A DNA stretch of 64,000 nucleotides, taken from NCBI GenBank assembly GCA_964016885.1, contig OZ024745.1:38006001-38070000 (forward strand), given 5' to 3'. The notes beneath the pieces are model-generated. The model made no database searches. It worked only from the letters and a program-made list of their open reading frames with translations, and had not been told where the DNA came from. Below are positions 8,735 to 64,000 of the stretch, one piece after another (position 1 is the stretch's first letter; every line of letters starts with the position of its first letter). Origin of the DNA: Eledone cirrhosa. Its lineage: Eukaryota. The position numbers were made by a program, and so were the translations under genes.

Positions 8735-9268
8735 TTAGTTTGGTCCGATTTTTAGTGCATTAAGTAGGGGTTGGAATTTGTTAATGAAATATGTTTCCTT
8801 ATTAGTACGGTGGATGAAGGTAGCGTTGTCTATGAATTTGTAAATGGCGAACATTTTAAGGTTTGGATGTTGGTTGTGTGCACAATTGTCGATATGTTCA
8901 CTAAATGTAATCTTTCTGTATTCCTGTATTTTAATTTGTGATTTATGGACGGTCATACGTTGACAGAGGCTATTTTTTGTCTGTCCTATGTAGTGCTCTT
9001 GACAACCTGAGCAGGTCAAAACAAAGATTAGGTTTTCAGATGCACATGTAAAGTTGTGTTTAACTGTGAAATGTTGTCCTTGTTTAAAATGGAATGATGA
9101 GCCTTCTATTAGATTTATGCATATGCCACAGTTGGCCCTTCCGCATTTTGTTACTGTAGGGTTCATTGTGATGGTTTGTTGGATTTTGGCTTGTGTGAGG
9201 ATGTTTTTTATGGATTTAGGCTGTCTTTTGCTCTTTATGATGTTGTGTGTTTGGAGGATTTTGTTCAT
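8735..9268 (-). pseudogene. PLE GIY-YIG endonuclease fragment
   Basis: LIFVLTC..C...YIGQT motif, conserved Arg and C-terminal E..FI....PLLN. No RT lies upstream, so the element is truncated. Confidence 0.85.
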
Positions 9269-9479
9269 TCTTGGGTCTCTTTTTAGTAAAGGAATGTTCT
9301 GGAGGATGGTGTCGAATGCCTCATTGTTGAGGGGGTTGTGTGTGGAGATATATGGTAGAGATTTTTGTTGCGGTTATATATATATTCTAGTCGATCGACT
9401 TTCGTCAAATCGGACCGAGAAAACTATGTTTCCGTTGGTCTTTCCAATTGCTAATACTATCTATCGGTCGCAACTCCAG

Positions 9480-27800: not shown

Positions 27801-28434
27801 TCATTAGTCTCTTCCACCAAGCCCATTTGCTACCATAGAATCAACATAAAATATTGACGAAAGTTCTTTAAGACAATTTTGAATAAACTGTTTATTTCCT
27901 CATACGCCGGCGCCGGATGTGCAAGTTATTCCAATATATATGTTTTTACAATTTTTTTCCAAAACTCATGCACCCCCCCCCCTATATATATTCATATGGC
28001 TGTGACAGGATGACAGCTTATCATATTCATAGCAAGATACTTCTATGTTTATAATAATTAAATATATATATACGTTTATATGTAATTCCATTATGAACTA
28101 CGCTATGTTAATGGTACTTCTTATATATATATATATATATAAAAACAAATAACGAAACGAAATTAAATTTCGTTTCGTTTGTAACTCACTTTTGTATGAC
28201 TGACGCTTAAACAATTAAGTTAAAAATGTACATCCGCATATGTATACTGAAATACTAGTATGCATATGAATACACACACGTATACATATGTAGATGTACC
28301 GAGTCTTTCACTGGTCACTTTACTGTGAGTATCCAGCTATTCTGTATGTAAACACACAGACAAACCGGTTTTTAGAGTCATACTGGTTTTTGAGGAAACA
28401 CCTTTCCTCTATTCTCCAGAAAGCCAGACAAGGA

Positions 28435-28477
28435 ACATTGAACTAGTTTCGTTGTTGTTACAACTCATCAGCAATAT
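28435..28477 (-). ncRNA. Type-I hammerhead ribozyme
   Basis: atattg-CTGATGA-gttg-taacaa-caac-GAAAC-ta-GTT-caatgt. Confidence 0.85.
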
Positions 28478-28900
28478 TTACCTATCTTCCGGCCTTTCTG
28501 GAGAATCGTAAAAGCACATATCGTTATATGCTTTTTCTATGAAAATTAGTAGTGGGCAGACCAATTTGCATAGAGTGTGAGTACGTACCAGTTCAACGGA
28601 GACGATAAAAACAAATAACGAAACGAAATTAAATTTCGTTTCGTTTGTAACTCACTTTTGTATGACTGACGCTTAAACAATTAAGTTAAAAATGTACATC
28701 CGCATATGTATACTGAAATACTAGTATGCATATGAATACACACACGTATACATATGTAGATGTACCAAGTCTTTCACTGGTCACTTTACTGTGAGTATCC
28801 AGCTATTCTGTATGTAAACACACAGACAAACCGGTTTTTAGAGTCATACTGGTTTTTGAGGAAACACCTTTCCTCTATTCTCCAGAAAGCCAGACAAGGA

Positions 28901-28943
28901 ACATTGAACTAGTTTCGTTGTTGTTACAACTCATCAGCAATAT
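28901..28943 (-). ncRNA. Type-I hammerhead ribozyme
   Basis: Identical motif, 466 bp from the previous copy. Confidence 0.85.
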
Positions 28944-29308
28944 TTACCTATCTACCGGCCTTTCTGGAGAATCGTAAAAGCACATATCGTTATATGCTTT
29001 TTCTATGAACATTAGTAGTGGGCAGACCAATTTGCATAGAGTGTGAGTACGTACCGGTTCAACGGAGACGATAAAAACAAATAACGAAACGAAATTAAAT
29101 TTCGTTTCGTTTGTAACTCACTTTTGTATGACTGACGCTTAAACAATTAAGTTAAAAATGTACATCCGCATTTGTTTTTATCGTCTCCGTTGAACCGGTA
29201 CGTACTCACACTCTATGCAAATTGGTCTGCCCACTACTAATTTTCATAGAAAAAGCATATAACGATATGTGCTTTTACGATTCTCCAGAAAGGCCGGTAG
29301 ATAGGTAA

Positions 29309-29351
29309 ATATTGCTGATGAGTTGTAACAACAACGAAACTAGTTCAATGT
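29309..29351 (+). ncRNA. Type-I hammerhead ribozyme (inverted arm)
   Basis: atattg-CTGATGA-gttg-taacaa-caac-GAAAC-ta-GTT-caatgt; palindrome AACTAGTT. Confidence 0.85.
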
Positions 29352-29569
29352 TCCTTGTCTGGCTTTCTGGAGAATAGAGGAAAGGTGTTTCCTCAAAAAC
29401 ACCAGTATGACTCTAAAAACCGGTTTGTCTGTGTGTTTACATACAGAATAGGTGGATACTCACAGTAAAGTGACCAGTGAAAGACTTGGTACATCTACAT
29501 ATGTATACGTGTGTGTATTCATATGCATACTAGTATTTCAGTATACATATGCGGATGTACATTTTTAAC

Positions 29570-29646
<77 letters not shown>

Positions 29647-30162: not shown

Positions 30163-30425
30163 TATAAAGAAAAAAAGATGAAATCGAAAATGCAACTGGA
30201 GTCTTATTTAAAAATATATATATAATTATTTGGTTCCTTTACCGGTTTCGCAGTTCTTCTGCTTTTCAAAAGTAGAGTTGAGAGAAAACCACAGACCCTC
30301 CATCTTAACCCTACTTTTGAAAAGCAGAAGAACTGCGAAACCGGTAAAGGAACCAAATAAGTATATATATTTTTTTAAAAATAAGACTCCAGTTGCATTT
30401 TCGATTTCATCTTTTTTTCTTTATA
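30163..30425. mobile_element. Fold-back element carrying only the 3' half of a hammerhead
   Basis: Arms about 30163-30283 and 30303-30425. GAAAC-cg-GTA-aagg at 30337-30350, mirrored at about 30236-30249. Confidence 0.8.
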
Positions 30426-30557
30426 CTTTCACTCATGTAGGACACCGGTTATTTTTCTTTTTGTAAAAAAACCTCACTTTCTAATATATATATATATATT
30501 AAATTTTAAGCAAAATATCGCTGCTTTCGCCCTTAGTGGGATCTAAGTCTTCACATT

Positions 30558-57359: not shown

Positions 57360-58010
57360 CAGTTGAGTTTAAACGATGTTTACAAGAACTAAATAAATTA
57401 TTACGCAAATTAATAGAGTTCTTACTTTTTAGTATAAAGAATATTTCTTCAAAGCAAAGGGAGCAATTTTTGCTTTAGAGATAATTTTCCAAGATAAAGA
57501 ATAGTTAATATTCTTGGATTTTAAGTTCCATAATAAATTGGATAGAGAAGTTGAAGATCTTTTTACCAATATTCGTAAAGAAACATTTATGGTTATTGAA
57601 ACGAGATTCGAAGTCTGTGGAAGTAGAGCCAACATAGTTAAAGGAATTTTCATTGGTTTTGACATTACAATTGTATACTATATTTTTAACTAAACGGTTA
57701 TTATTTAGAGGACAGTTAAATTTTTTTCTACAATTACATTTATCTGAATTTATATTATTGGGAGCTGTAACATTATATTGGATATTGTTGGAGGTATTAA
57801 TGTTATTCTGGTTAGGTTTTAAGTTTCTATTTTTAAAGCTCTTGATAAGTGTTTTCCTAAGACACACATATATTACTCAATCTTTAATAGACATACTATT
57901 AAACTCTCTATTATTAATTCTATTAATATTCTGCGCTAAATTCATAGTGGTGGAATATGAGAGTTTAATAGTATGTCTATTAAAGATTGAGTAATATCTG
58001 TGTAAAACAC
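57360..58010 (-). mobile_element. Penelope-like element 3' remnant (GIY-YIG)
   Basis: IFNRHTIKLSYST; CNCRKKFNCPLNNN.LVKNIVY.C.V...YVGSTSTDFESRFNNH; LSNLLWNLK...YSLSWKII. Frameshifted. The very AT-rich 56000-57350 probably belongs to its 3' UTR. Confidence 0.85.
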
Positions 58011-59161: not shown

Positions 59162-59773
59162 ATGTCTAATGATAAAATCTCATATCGGGTCGGCCGTCAC
59201 CCGGGTAAAAAAGGGCCGCGTCCCTCAGAGAGGAACCAGACTGGGGTCGAAAAATCAGCTAATGGTTCAAACCTTCCCATCACTTCGGAGCTGGAGACCT
59301 CCCATAACCGGAATACTCCTACTGTTGGCCCTCCATGCTCACCACCAAGAAATCCAAAGAAAAAGAGAGAAAAATGGTCAAGGGAAGATAATAAAGAAGT
59401 CCTTGAGGCTTTCTACACTGCCATGTACTACTCATCAAATACATCGAATACAGAACAGACATATATCAACTGGAAAAAGAAACATCCCGAAAACAGAGGC
59501 TATATTGACAGTAACAAACTAGCCAATATACGAAGAAATATTGTAAGAAAAAAGTTACTAACTGATATAGAAATTGATCAGATCAAGCTATTAGCACAAA
59601 GTCAGCGAAGGGAAAATGAAACATGTGTCAGTGAAAACGAGGTAAATTGTAACACTTCGAATCCCAGGGTTGGGGCGGAATCACTGGCAACAGAACAAAT
59701 TAAAGAAAGCATCGAAAAAGTGGGGGCATGCATGCTCAAGATGAAACTCCAAATGAAAATAATGAGATCGTAA
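59162..59773 (+). CDS. N-terminal part of the R4/Dong ORF (upstream of the frameshift)
   Basis: RxKWSREDNKEVLEAFY...W...HP...LAN.RR.I..KKLLT..EI, the Myb-like N-terminal pattern of R4/Dong. It parallels NWTKELNRTVMQCY in the second element. Confidence 0.75.
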   Translation: MSNDKISYRVGRHPGKKGPRPSERNQTGVEKSANGSNLPITSELETSHNRNTPTVGPPCSPPRNPKKKREKWSREDNKEVLEAFYTAMYYSSNTSNTEQTYINWKKKHPENRGYIDSNKLANIRRNIVRKKLLTDIEIDQIKLLAQSQRRENETCVSENEVNCNTSNPRVGAESLATEQIKESIEKVGACMLKMKLQMKIMRS

Positions 59774-62700
59774 ATGATAAAGAAATGAATGAGAATGAAC
59801 TTGCCAACTTGAAGGATGAAATTATGATCGAATGGATGAAAATGAAAGAATCTGACATGGGGCAACGAGACACCCTCCCTAAGATCCAGAACTCCAAACA
59901 GAACCAAAAGATAATACACAAGACTAACATAATTCTCAAAAACATTATCATCACAAACAAACTAAACATTACTGATTTAAATCATCTCTATTATGCATCG
60001 GCTAAAGTCACCACTCACTTATGTGGAGTGAAGATGAAAAAACAAAGGAATTCCCACAAGAAATCTACTTGGCAAGAGAACATCACACGCCAAATAAACC
60101 TTCTCCGATCTGACATAGAAATTTTAACAAACTATAAAGTAGGTGAACATGTTAAACAAACTAAACTTAGAAAATTGAAAAGAAAGTACAGTATAAAATC
60201 AACAAGTGACATAGACATGCTGATAGAAATAATCAAGCAAAAAGTGTCGGCCAAAGCTGCTCGTATAAGGCGCTTTGAAAAACGATCTAGATTCTATAAG
60301 GACAATAATATGTTCAAAAACAACCAAAGAAACTTCTACAGAAAAATTGGTAAGTCAACAATAACTGCTAAATCAATACCACCCAAGGAGGAAGTGCAAG
60401 ATGGCTGGGAAAAGATCTGGGCCGAAGAAAAAGTTCATAACATACATGCCCCATGGATAGACAGACAAATGAAAGATACAGCTCACCTTGAGGAACAAAT
60501 ATGGGAAAATATAACAGTTGAACAGTTGCGCTTGGTTCTAAGAAAAACCAGCAAATGGAAATCCCCAGAAAAAGACAAAATACAAAATTTTTGGATAAAT
60601 GCCTTCACAGAGTCTCATGAGCTGTTAGCCCAACTTTACAATGAAATAGTTAAGGAGCCAGAAAAGATACCATCATGGCTAGTTAACGGCATTACATTCC
60701 TGCTTCCGAAGAATGATGAGACAAACAATCGCCAAAATTACAGACCGATAACTTGCTTGACCACAATGTATAAAATTTTAACATCAGTCCTAACTGAATA
60801 CACATATGACCACCTGATAATAATTGACCTATTTCCCATTGAGCAGAAAGGGTGTAAACGAGGCTCATATGGCTGTAAGGATCAGCTTTTGGTTAACAAA
60901 ATGATACTGGAAGATTGTCATAATAGACACAAAAATCTATCGATTGCTTGGATAGATTATAAAAAAGCATTCGATAGTTTTCCACACAGTTGGATTGAAA
61001 AATGTTTAGAGATTTTCAAAATATCCCCCGTTGTCAGGAGGATTTTGTCATTCAGTATGAAGACATGGAAAACGACACTCCTTTTGAATAGTGAAACAAA
61101 ATCACTGGAAGATGGAGAAGTTAATATTAATTGTGGAATTTTTCAGGGTGACTCTTTATCACCGCTTTTATTCTGCATCGCACTTATACCATTAAGTAAA
61201 ATGCTCAATGAAACAAAACATGGATATAAAGTCTATGACAAAACCATTAATCACTTGTTCTACATGGATGACCTGAAACTATTTGCAAAAAATGATGAAC
61301 AATTGCAAGGGTTATTATCCACTGTGGAGCAGTTCAGTGATGACATTAAAATGGAGTTTGGACTAGATAAATGCGCCAAAGCAACGTTCACCAGGGGAAA
61401 GCTGCTGAAGAGTTCAGACATTAATCTTGATCGGGGGAACGTGATAAGAGAACTTGATCAAGAAAAAACTTACAAATATCTAGATGTTTGTGAAGGAGAC
61501 GGAATCAAGCACTCGACAATGAGGGAAAGGATAAGGAAGGAATGTTACCGCAGAGTAAGAGCAATCTTAAGAACGGAATTGAATGCAAGGAATAGGATCG
61601 ATGCTATAAACACGCTTGCCATACCAGTAGTAACCAACAGTTACAATGTCATCAACTGGTCAAGCACAGAGATCCGTAGGCTCGATACAAAAATTCGAAA
61701 ATTCTTAACCATGTACAGACTGCATCACCCTAAGGCAGATATAGATAGAATATATCTCCCTAGGAAAGAAGGAGGACGTGGGTTAATCCAGTTAGACAAT
61801 GCAACAATTGGATTATCTACATATCTAAGGGAATCACATGATTGGATGATCAAACTCGTTTTGAAACACGAAAGCATCAAAAGATCATATTCCATTACAA
61901 AAGATGCACAAAGATACAGTAATGGACTACAAATTTCAGAAGTCCCATTTACTGCTGAAATGGAAAACACAGAAAAAGCAAAGCAGGTACAAGTAACTGC
62001 AAAGAAAGAACTGCTACAGAAACTGGCTAAGAAATGGCAAGAAAAGCCTCTGTATGGAAAATACCCAGAGCGAGCTAACAATCCTGATGTTGACAAAACT
62101 TTAACCCATCAGTGGTTGGCATCCTCTGGACTGAAATCGGAGACTGAAGGACTGATTATATCAGCACAAGATCAGTGTCTGCCAACAAAAAAATACCAAG
62201 CCAACATAATAAAAAATGGATGCAGCCCATTATGCCGTGTATGCAAAAAACAACCAGAGACCATTGACCATATAATTTCAATGTGCAGTCCTATAGCTCC
62301 AACCGAATACCTAAACAGGCATGACAGAGCTGCACAATACATACATTGGATAATGTGTAAGCATTTTGACCTGTCCCATCAAAAGAATTGGTGGGAGCAT
62401 CAACCACCACCCATACTTGAAAAAGATTACATCTCAATCTTGTGGAACTTTAGCATCCAAACAGACCGAAAAATAGATGCAAATAGACCTGATATAATAT
62501 TGAAGGACTTTAAAAAGAGGGTATGCCTGCTAATTGATATGTCTGTTCCAATAGACAAGAATGTATCTATAAAAACATTTGAAAAATTGAGCAAGTATAA
62601 GGACCTGGAGATGGAAATTGGAAAAATGTGGAAATTGAGAACTAAAACAATACCAGTGGTTGTAGGCGCTCTGGCAATGATACCTAAGGGGTCTAATGAT

Positions 62701-62793
62701 TACTTATCGCGAATCCCAGGAAACCCGCGAATAGGAGAAACGATAGTACTAATGGGAACTGCCCATATACTAAGGAAGATTCTGTCAATATAA
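59728..62793 (+). CDS. Reverse transcriptase-CCHC-RLE endonuclease polyprotein (1021 aa open frame)
   Basis: NYRPITCL, EQKG, IDYKKAFDS, GIFQGDSLSP, FYMDD, GLDKC; zinc knuckle CRVC...HIISMC; RHD; PDII...LLIDMSVP...KLSKY. Confidence 0.95.
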   Translation: MHAQDETPNENNEIVNDKEMNENELANLKDEIMIEWMKMKESDMGQRDTLPKIQNSKQNQKIIHKTNIILKNIIITNKLNITDLNHLYYASAKVTTHLCGVKMKKQRNSHKKSTWQENITRQINLLRSDIEILTNYKVGEHVKQTKLRKLKRKYSIKSTSDIDMLIEIIKQKVSAKAARIRRFEKRSRFYKDNNMFKNNQRNFYRKIGKSTITAKSIPPKEEVQDGWEKIWAEEKVHNIHAPWIDRQMKDTAHLEEQIWENITVEQLRLVLRKTSKWKSPEKDKIQNFWINAFTESHELLAQLYNEIVKEPEKIPSWLVNGITFLLPKNDETNNRQNYRPITCLTTMYKILTSVLTEYTYDHLIIIDLFPIEQKGCKRGSYGCKDQLLVNKMILEDCHNRHKNLSIAWIDYKKAFDSFPHSWIEKCLEIFKISPVVRRILSFSMKTWKTTLLLNSETKSLEDGEVNINCGIFQGDSLSPLLFCIALIPLSKMLNETKHGYKVYDKTINHLFYMDDLKLFAKNDEQLQGLLSTVEQFSDDIKMEFGLDKCAKATFTRGKLLKSSDINLDRGNVIRELDQEKTYKYLDVCEGDGIKHSTMRERIRKECYRRVRAILRTELNARNRIDAINTLAIPVVTNSYNVINWSSTEIRRLDTKIRKFLTMYRLHHPKADIDRIYLPRKEGGRGLIQLDNATIGLSTYLRESHDWMIKLVLKHESIKRSYSITKDAQRYSNGLQISEVPFTAEMENTEKAKQVQVTAKKELLQKLAKKWQEKPLYGKYPERANNPDVDKTLTHQWLASSGLKSETEGLIISAQDQCLPTKKYQANIIKNGCSPLCRVCKKQPETIDHIISMCSPIAPTEYLNRHDRAAQYIHWIMCKHFDLSHQKNWWEHQPPPILEKDYISILWNFSIQTDRKIDANRPDIILKDFKKRVCLLIDMSVPIDKNVSIKTFEKLSKYKDLEMEIGKMWKLRTKTIPVVVGALAMIPKGSNDYLSRIPGNPRIGETIVLMGTAHILRKILSI

Positions 62794-62965
62794 GTACATC
62801 ACAAGTCTAAACACTAAAGATGCATGTGTGAGTATGTATGTTCTTTCTTGAACATGGCGGACCTTGTTGTCTCTTGATGTCACTGGTTGTGACTTGGTGA
62901 TAACTCGTATGAACATAAAGCAAGATAAATGCAACTGTAATAATAATAATAATAATAACGGTGAA

Positions 62966-64000
62966 ATGGAGACTAGAATGCCATGTGACAGACTCTCACG
63001 TAACAGGTGCTCCCTGGCTCAGCAACAGGGACCTGGCTGTCAACCAAATACTGCTGGTGTCGGAGGAAGAAGAAGAAGGAAAGGGACCAGAACCAACTGG
63101 ACGAAAGAATTGAATAGAACTGTTATGCAATGTTACCTGAAGAGTAACCCCAAGGAGAAAGGCTATAGGAAACGGATGCATAACATCTGCAACGAGATTG
63201 GTCTATTTAAATTAGATGAACAAAAATTGGCCGGGCAGGCTCGGGTAATAAGAACTAATGGGTGGATAAGCGAGCTGGAACTGGAGGAACTGAGCAGAGA
63301 GATTAGCCTGGAGATAGAGAGTGGAGTATGCCAGGCAAACGAGCCAGTGGGAAATGAAGGTGAAGAGGTCGAGAGAACGGAGGAACCACCCGAAGCAGAC
63401 AATGATCTGAATACTGAGATAAATAATACCTGGAACAGAGATACGGCCACTGAGGAGATGAATGCTGACGGGCTAGGACAAGATTTGGTTGATATCCTAA
63501 ACTTAGTGGTAGATGAATTGAACAATGATAGTGGGAAACCTATGAACCTAAGATTTGTAGACAGGAAAACGTTAAAAGAAACAACAGCTAAGGTAAACAA
63601 AGTCATCCCATACCTTGAGGCGAGGAGCCTTCACCAGTGCAACAATATCCTCAAAGCAACAACAAAAACGGTGAGGAAACTACTTGGTATAAAAGCGAGA
63701 GGAAACAACAGACAAGAAAGATCAGAGCCTTGGTGGAAGAAACGACTGAGTGGTCAAATCAGGGAAATGAGAAATGACATTGGAAAGCTTGAGTCCCTAC
63801 TGAATGGGACACTAAAAAACATAGACACTAAAAATAGCCTGGAAATAAAGTACAAAACTAGGAGGAAAAAGCTAAATATTATCATAGAGGAACTGAAGCA
63901 ACGCATTGTAGCAAAGAGTGCAACAATCAGGCGATACGAGAACAGAGTGAGTCAGTATAGACAGAACCGCATGTTCGACAACAACCAGAAGATGCTGTTT
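62966..64000 (+). CDS. N-terminal ~345 codons of a second R4/Dong-type ORF, open to the window edge (absent from the ORF track)
   Basis: Manual translation from ATG 62966 has no stop: METRMP...NWTKELNRTVMQCYLKS...PWWKKRL...ELKQRIVAKSATIRRYENRVSQYRQNRMFDNNQK. This is homologous to IIKQKVSAKAARIRRFEKRSRFYKDNNMFKNNQR in the upstream element. Confidence 0.88.
   Translation, partial: METRMPCDRLSRNRCSLAQQQGPGCQPNTAGVGGRRRRKGTRTNWTKELNRTVMQCYLKSNPKEKGYRKRMHNICNEIGLFKLDEQKLAGQARVIRTNGWISELELEELSREISLEIESGVCQANEPVGNEGEEVERTEEPPEADNDLNTEINNTWNRDTATEEMNADGLGQDLVDILNLVVDELNNDSGKPMNLRFVDRKTLKETTAKVNKVIPYLEARSLHQCNNILKATTKTVRKLLGIKARGNNRQERSEPWWKKRLSGQIREMRNDIGKLESLLNGTLKNIDTKNSLEIKYKTRRKKLNIIIEELKQRIVAKSATIRRYENRVSQYRQNRMFDNNQKMLF

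What the first reader, a model, noticed from the sequence alone, without database searches (positions are those of the whole stretch)
28141..29574. 466-bp hammerhead unit in a 2.2x tandem array plus an inverted copy
Seen: units at 28141/28607/29073 differ by only a few bases, followed by an abrupt inversion at about 29171, with three identical minimal hammerheads (GUU triplet, stem-III palindrome AACTAGTT). Inference: more than two tandem copies is what rolling-circle reverse transcription of a circular 466-nt RNA would give, and the inversion fits a template switch or snap-back. Near-identity suggests a recent insertion.
Basis: partly seen in the sequence, partly recalled or inferred. Interest (0 to 1): 0.85.

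Follow-up and report, generated by a model that had tools for sequence, protein, structure and literature searches.

The report
Two-armed hammerhead retrozyme insertion
This is one young copy of a non-coding jumping repeat, present at about two thousand places in an animal genome, that carries a predicted self-cutting RNA motif and sits as two back-to-back strings of units with two fixed ends, a layout that likely records a Penelope-type transposon enzyme copying one small, probably circular RNA into both sides of a DNA cut.

Summary
Observation confirmed. A 466-bp unit with a type I hammerhead forms a 2.2-unit arm (28141-29171) joined head-to-head to a 0.87-unit arm (29170-29575) inside (TA)n. 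It belongs to a young family with 2,161 exact tail-end junctions and 7,428 unit-unit junctions in the genome. The inversion is not a snap-back: both outer ends are RNA 3' ends. In 54 of 54 two-armed insertions with canonical ends, one arm stops at unit position 462-466 and the other at 389-399, never like with like. Relatives have 9-14-bp target duplications, and both arms share one haplotype. This is the Penelope 'inverted copy plus tail' footprint, best explained by priming from both strands. Relatives with 20-26 near-identical units favour a circular template (about 0.6), but this locus alone does not prove it, and one locus favours a multimer. No helper element was identified; RNA, circles and cleavage are untested. 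It is a non-LTR retrozyme, a known class. The strict two-site rule was not in the papers I read. The scan had already reported this family and sister families on other DNA of this genome.

The parts
28122..28140 (.). Left (TA)n target run; a target-site duplication cannot be resolved in pure TA
28141..29171 (-). Arm 1 ('tail' arm): 2.2 units, RNA 3' end at unit position 466 against (TA)n, 5' end at about unit position 368
28141..28212 (-). Tail (unit positions 395-466, with a 13-bp hairpin), present at the outer end of arm 1 only; the 67-72 nt between the two inferred priming sites
28435..28477 (-). Type I hammerhead, unit 1; predicted cut between 28441 and 28440 (after GUU)
28564..28571 (-). 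Octamer ATGCAAAT (unit positions 36-43), possible internal promoter element; also at 29030-29037 (minus) and 29215-29222 (plus)
   Evidence: promoter role inferred
28901..28943 (-). Type I hammerhead, unit 2; predicted cut between 28907 and 28906
29170..29171 (.). Head-to-head (5'-5') junction with a 2-nt microhomology
29170..29575 (+). Arm 2 ('short' arm): unit positions 457-466 plus 1-394, RNA 3' end at position 394 against (TA)n
29309..29351 (+). Type I hammerhead in arm 2; predicted cut between 29345 and 29346
29576..29639 (.). Right (TA)n target run

Best explanation
This is a young two-armed insertion of a non-coding 466-nt hammerhead repeat (a non-LTR retrozyme) in (TA)n, likely written in by a Penelope-like RT/GIY-YIG protein supplied in trans that primed cDNA from both strands of a staggered cut on the same, probably circular, RNA. 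Shown: the anatomy, copy number, two fixed 3' ends paired one per arm, 9-14-bp target duplications in relatives, one haplotype on both arms, and conservation of the hammerhead. Inferred steps: (1) arrays are transcribed, perhaps from an internal snRNA-type promoter; (2) hammerheads, probably acting as dimers through the palindromic stem III, cut after unit position 166 and the monomer is ligated into a 466-nt circle; (3) the PLE protein binds the tail region and cuts both strands of (TA)n about 10 bp apart; (4) one 3'-OH primes at unit position 466 and the other at 394-399; (5) each cDNA runs from 0.1 to about 18 units; (6) the two cDNA ends join by short microhomology, giving head-to-head arms with the tail on one side only; (7) later unequal exchange lengthens some arrays. 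Component odds: PLE-type two-ended priming about 0.9; monomer circle as the usual template about 0.6.
For: Ends: 54 of 54 two-armed rows with canonical ends pair 462-466 with 389-399, including 37 of 37 in the sets picked by sequence score alone. Of 40 further tail-end loci, 26 show a short-end partner (7 of them tiny and read by eye) and none a second tail end. Target duplications of about 9-14 bp are visible at imperfect TA sites L044, L046, L048, L059, L060, L067. The two arms of a locus differ at 30 of 2,989 diagnostic sites, against 32,495 of 174,938 between loci. C1:30.83 Mb has 6.9+13.0 units with 17 full units of one sequence, L220 has 6 full units of one sequence, and C18:30.95 Mb has 17.6+8 units with no substitution and one 3-nt deletion. 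Minority variants are mirrored between arms at matching rank 3 times versus 103 not, so templates were mostly homogeneous. The hammerhead core and stem III are invariant in 82 of 82 loci, stem II shows a compensatory U-A to A-U change in 12, and the cut base is U or C only. An Anolis PLE protein cuts and extends both strands at AT-rich DNA and starts RT at two internal sites that bound the tail (PMC11167929). Retrozyme monomers form circles in coral, mussel and axolotl (PMC7229834). The genome holds young RT+GIY-YIG elements with the same geometry.
Against: No helper shares sequence with the unit in 50 loci from six PLE families, and 65 flanks gave no clean hybrid. L221 has G190A in the outermost unit of both arms and A216G only in inner units, the pattern of a heterogeneous multimer template. 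In this locus, unit 1 carries two alleles (A119, C306) that are common elsewhere in the family and absent from the other units, and the arm geometry would fit a linear 3-mer. The A36G/A40G/A41G cluster, which looked like a one-off RNA edit, is shared by 7 loci (69 units), so a homogeneous donor array is not excluded; one such arm runs into an assembly gap. The ribozyme is weak on paper (one-pair stem III, GUU). In PMC11167929 unprocessed RNA was the main in vitro substrate, and 8 of 9 Xenopus dimers did not cleave (10.64898/2026.07.22.740005). The tail here is 67-72 nt, longer than the 30-40 bp in the literature.
Confidence: 0.6

Rival explanations
1. Same two-ended PLE priming, but the template is an uncut multimeric transcript (linear or circular) of a young homogeneous array. 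The hammerhead serves another step, and arrays grow at DNA level.
For: L221 shows a rank-mirrored variant. Unit 1 of this locus has family-common alleles. The identical 468-nt lineage is spread over 7 loci, with one arm at a gap. Older arrays have higher-order repeats. Unprocessed RNA is the in vitro substrate in PMC11167929.
Against: Only 3 mirrored against 103 unmirrored variants. Arms reach 17.6 units without a substitution and no longer donor is among the 7 loci. Marker alleles are nearly all-or-none within loci: G45 in 8 all, 49 none, 0 mixed; G171 in 8 all, 53 none, 0 mixed. L1-style abutting of arms fits only 15 of 54.
Confidence: 0.26
2. The RT builds concatemers by jumping from the 5' end of a hammerhead-cut linear RNA to the 3' end of the same or another cut RNA, with no covalent circle.
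For: On C744 an arm changes lineage between unit positions 166 and 236, a window that begins at the predicted cut (one event, about 15% by chance). L061 has an arm ending at position 165.
Against: Haplotype changes within loci are rare. 5' ends are not enriched at the cut: 5 of 128 against 3.0 expected.
Confidence: 0.1
3. The inversion is a snap-back or template switch of one cDNA, a later DNA rearrangement, or an assembly artefact.
For: Some junctions lie in hairpins, with overlaps of 18-32 nt (L052, L214, L218). This junction was not read-verified.
Against: The inverted arm ends at a fixed second 3' site in 54 of 54 cases, junction phases of the two arms usually differ, and target duplications enclose both arms.
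Confidence: 0.04

Closest known systems
Metazoan non-LTR retrozymes (Cervera and de la Pena 2020, PMC7229834, parts 2-4 of 6 read; Li, Clavereau and Pollet 2026, 10.64898/2026.07.22.740005, parts 1-3 of 5 read)
   Same: Non-coding, low-GC (35%), strongly self-paired tandem unit of a few hundred nt with one type I hammerhead; thousands of copies; target duplications longer than 4 bp; coexists with PLEs. The one-pair stem III with a palindromic tetraloop matches the newt/axolotl HHR_Amex1 type, which cleaves as a dimer.
   Different: The parts I read describe head-to-tail arrays and propose circle copying and PLE mobilisation without insertion-level evidence. They do not describe two-armed insertions or two fixed priming sites. 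Circles and cleavage were shown there and are untested here.
Penelope-like elements (Craig et al. 2021, PMC8557442, passages read; Frangieh et al. 2024, PMC11167929, parts 1-2 of 4 read)
   Same: Inverted 5'-truncated copy, tail often at one end only, (TA)n targeting (Neptune, Naiad), both strands cut and extended, two internal RT start sites bounding the tail.
   Different: No ORF; both arms can be many-unit concatemers; tail of 67-72 nt rather than 30-40 bp. Frangieh saw no difference in start site between strands in vitro, whereas genomic insertions here use one site per strand in 54 of 54 cases.
L1 twin priming (recalled, not from a call)
   Same: Two target 3' ends prime on one RNA, giving a 5'-5' inversion with microhomology and a target duplication.
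   Different: The second site here is fixed, both sites are internal, and the arms usually overlap in sequence rather than abut (39 of 54).

Membership tests
Non-LTR retrozyme | Tandem units of a few hundred bp, each with a type I hammerhead | tested here: met
   7,428 unit-unit junctions
Non-LTR retrozyme | No protein coding | tested here: met
   Longest stop-free stretch is 57-60 aa in a trimer
Non-LTR retrozyme | Low GC and highly self-paired RNA | tested here: met
   164 of 466 G+C; z -11.4
Non-LTR retrozyme | Dispersed mobile copies with target duplications longer than 4 bp | tested here: met
   2,161 tail-end junctions; 9-14 bp at six imperfect TA sites; not resolvable at this locus
Non-LTR retrozyme | No PBS or PPT | not tested
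   No LTR-type layout seen; PBS and PPT were not searched
Non-LTR retrozyme | Self-cleavage and accumulation of circular RNA | not testable with these tools
   No run on record as RNA; contigs cannot show circles
Type I hammerhead | CUGANGA and GAAA core, NUH triplet, stems I and II | tested here: met
   Invariant in 82 of 82 loci; compensatory stem II pair in 12; GUU 73, GUC 9
Type I hammerhead | Rfam gathering score | tested here: not met
   HH9 34-35 bits against 52; none
Type I hammerhead | Loop 1-loop 2 tertiary contact | not tested
   Not modelled
Autonomous Penelope-like element | RT plus GIY-YIG ORF | tested here: not met
   None in the unit; so it works like a PLE but is not an autonomous one
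PLE-mobilised element | Inverted 5'-truncated copy with the tail at one end, AT-rich target | tested here: met
   54 of 54; tail 67-72 nt
PLE-mobilised element | Sequence kinship to the pLTR of a helper PLE | tested here: inconclusive
   No match in 50 loci of six families; the genome gave 10,597 GIY-YIG candidates, 150 scored
L1-type twin priming | 5' end of the downstream arm abuts the priming site of the inverted arm | tested here: not met
   15 of 54 within unit positions 360-435, about 9 expected by chance, sample biased

The most novel reading that the evidence does not exclude
A Penelope-type dimer docks on the tail of one ribozyme RNA circle, assigns one fixed start site to each strand of the cut, and both RT subunits roll round the same circle up to about 18 times with strand displacement. 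This would be natural double rolling-circle retrotransposition in an animal germline, and it would explain the PLE inverted-repeat-plus-tail structure. An excess of A-to-G among locus-fixed variants (9 of 19 against 32 of 257 private) may record RNA editing frozen into every unit.
Probability: 0.45. Interest if true: 0.8.

Novelty: new variant of a known kind. Interest (0 to 1): 0.6.

Why it matters
Two open questions meet here: whether animal retrozyme circles are really the templates that get written back into genomes, and how Penelope-like elements make their inverted copies with a one-sided tail. About two thousand young insertions give a strict rule (one start site per strand, one template for both arms, staggered cut of about 10 bp). 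They also give a defined 466-nt RNA with mapped start sites that can be tested in an existing in vitro PLE assay.

Tried and rejected
Helper search. An abundant older PLE family (30 loci) and 20 GIY-YIG loci, most picked for long frames, show no sequence match to the unit. The GIY-YIG 3.3 kb from a copy (L159) is a neighbour; the adjoining pLTR piece is a separate insertion in the same TA run. L256 joins unit position 131 to the pLTR of another PLE family, but the join lies 13 nt from that element's own head-to-head centre, so a later deletion is the simpler reading. A genome search with that piece returned nothing (uninformative).

One-off RNA editing at C1:30.83 Mb was rejected as a single event because the triple is in 7 loci. 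Three of the 9 A-to-G variants are that triple, and A-to-G against T-to-C alone is not significant (9 against 3, p 0.09). Selection for G-U-tolerant changes is a rival reading.

Expression: no RNA holder listed; this is no evidence either way. Raw DNA run X22 laid 0 reads, which is no test. No contig bridging this junction was among the pieces listed. Siblings of this locus's exact haplotype were not obtained. The Rfam sRNA and miRNA hits are chance matches to hairpins and TA-rich sequence. Paper searches for a prior description of two-armed retrozyme insertions or a one-site-per-strand rule found none; older Penelope papers are mostly outside the library.

Full report
Anatomy. The window comes from a 3.0-Gb, microsatellite-rich genome; other scan notes call it cephalopod, which I did not test. 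Unit positions below count along the reverse complement of 28607-29072. Arm 1 (28141-29171, minus) holds two full units and positions 368-466 of a third. Arm 2 (29170-29575, plus) holds positions 457-466 and 1-394. They meet 5' to 5' over a 2-nt microhomology, and both outer ends run into (TA)n. Within the locus there are 5 substitutions and one 2-nt insertion in 1,427 nt. Each unit has a type I hammerhead at 130-172: 6-bp stem I, CUGAUGA, 4-bp stem II, GAAA, one A-U pair closing a palindromic CUAG loop, and a GUU triplet with the cut predicted after 166. That stem III is the type described for newt and axolotl ribozymes that cleave as dimers (PMC7229834). The unit is non-coding and strongly folded.

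Family. Exact whole-genome counts give 2,161 junctions of position 466 with TA and 7,428 unit-to-unit junctions. There are 591 plus-strand junctions of 394-399 with TA; the minus-strand count of 1,186 is inflated by overlapping matches, so about 1,200 sites. All are lower bounds. A sister family with a 430-nt unit, alignable over its whole length, has 7,044 hits to a tail motif and the same layout. Across 82 loci (391 segments) the hammerhead core and stem III never vary at locus level, stem II has a compensatory change in 12 loci, and the tail is less variable than the rest (5 of 73 against 68 of 377 sites, p 0.015). The octamer ATGCAAAT at 36-43 is intact in 20 of 24 sister copies examined. 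A snRNA-type promoter drives the newt hammerhead satellite (two passages of PMC2220036), so an internal promoter is a lead only.

The inversion. One search parsed 80 fetched stretches into 65 head-to-head rows and 20 single arms. Eleven rows have one non-canonical end (two of them are one locus, L215, split by the script). The other 54 all pair an end at 462-466 with an end at 389-399. Seventeen of these were picked because both ends were listed near each other; the 37 picked by sequence score alone also all obey the rule. Forty more tail-end loci, chosen mostly for lacking a listed partner, gave 26 with a short-end partner (7 tiny and read by eye; L244 and L245 look like one duplicated insertion), 3 that ran off the fetched stretch, 2 with a partner ending elsewhere, 9 with none, and none with two tail ends. 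Where the target is imperfect TA, duplications of about 9-14 bp enclose both arms. 5' ends fall all over the unit, and junctions mostly overlap by 0-9 nt. A snap-back cannot give a fixed second 3' end. This is what follows if both strands of a staggered cut prime cDNA at two fixed internal sites. PLEs are known to carry an inverted truncated copy and a tail often at one end only (PMC8557442, passages), and a purified PLE protein extends both strands from two internal start sites that bound the tail (PMC11167929). A young RT+GIY-YIG family in this genome (L160, 938-aa frame) shows the same short-end/tail-end pairing with a tail of about 60 nt, including a remnant at window 30163-30482.

One template for both arms. 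In 59 two-armed loci the arms differ at 30 of 2,989 diagnostic sites (40 loci identical), against 32,495 of 174,938 for arms of different loci. This locus fits: all its units carry G45, G171, G291 and C371.

Circle or multimer. For a circle: insertions of 6.9+13.0 and 17.6+8 units have essentially one sequence; minority variants are mirrored between arms 3 times against 103 not, in 46 loci; marker alleles are nearly all-or-none within loci; and retrozyme circles exist in other animals. Locus-unique fixed variants are enriched for A-to-G on the RNA strand (9 of 19 against 32 of 257 private, Fisher p 0.0005). Against: three of those nine form one cluster that proved to be a lineage in 7 loci, so a homogeneous donor array remains possible. 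L221 shows the mirrored pattern of a heterogeneous multimer. Unit 1 here has two family-common alleles. Older arrays (L039, L040, L213, and a 30-unit arm at C1:5.74 Mb) have higher-order repeats, so DNA-level growth happens and copy number alone proves little. One arm on C744 changes lineage between positions 166 and 236, compatible with a jump at the ribozyme cut. I put a monomer circle at about 0.6, multimers at about 0.26 and end-to-end jumping at about 0.1; more than one may operate.

Helper. Not identified: 50 loci of six PLE families show no sequence match to the unit, and 25 plus 40 flank sets gave no clean hybrid. The hybrid lead in note e1-8667327 was therefore not reproduced in my sample.

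Other organisms. One search lists 20 runs holding part of the stretch, in 16 studies and 17 coded organisms, none on record as RNA. Laid runs of organisms B, D, E and F cover most or all of the unit, with most pieces 95% alike or better, at depth 4.5-190 (to 430 where pieces overlap), against about 10^5 in two runs of organism A. Carry-over is the simplest reading; horizontal spread is not shown.

Standing. The element class, its proposed PLE link (10.64898/2026.07.22.740005) and the PLE inverted-plus-tail layout are known. I did not find two-armed retrozyme concatemers or the one-site-per-strand rule in seven searches. I did not read the supplements of PMC7229834 (life-cycle figure) or PMC11167929 (genomic tail ends), the bioRxiv supplements are closed, and older Penelope papers are recalled only; any of these could lower the novelty. 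The scan had already reported this family and sister families in this genome; my reading was recorded before I saw those notes.

Noticed in passing
window 30163-30482: Small head-to-head remnant of the pLTR of a young RT+GIY-YIG family (L160). The left arm ends at the short site and the right arm about 60 nt further, both in TA. It carries a hammerhead-like motif with UUGAAAA in place of CUGANGA and the palindrome ACCGGU.
   Followed up: partly
L170:7550-9901; L179-L208: Sister hammerhead family with units of about 430-500 nt, 7,044 motif hits, GUA triplet, the same tail motif and octamer, and the same two-end layout.
   Followed up: partly
L235 (G000:C744:12764-17802): One arm changes from one lineage to another between unit positions 166 and 236, next to the predicted ribozyme cut.
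   Followed up: partly
L211-L212, L229-L235: A 468-nt lineage in 7 loci, with almost no substitutions among its units, has lost the octamer through three A-to-G changes yet is among the youngest.
   Followed up: partly
runs X4, X7, X8, X9 (coded organisms B, D, E, F): The near-identical unit appears in contigs of other coded organisms at low depth. X4 is a single closed 496-nt contig and X8 one haplotype at depth about 190. Carry-over versus real presence is unresolved.
   Followed up: partly
L040, L039, L209-L210, L213: Long arms with 3- or 4-unit higher-order repeats; in L040 some units have a broken hammerhead core (G141A).
   Followed up: partly
L061:2511-2535 and 2582: Arms ending at unit position 165, one base from the predicted cut, on both sides of one TA run.
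   Followed up: no
L256:3018-3265: A retrozyme arm is joined without TA to the pLTR end of another young PLE family; probably a deletion between neighbouring insertions.
   Followed up: partly
window 8735-9373 (minus), 57505-57876 (minus): Two GIY-YIG fragments of different PLE families; the first belongs to an older family with 15,732 first-look candidates.
   Followed up: partly
window 59704-62793 and 62852-64000 (plus): A 1,029-aa frame with a reverse transcriptase domain (PF00078), followed by the start of a related element.
   Followed up: no
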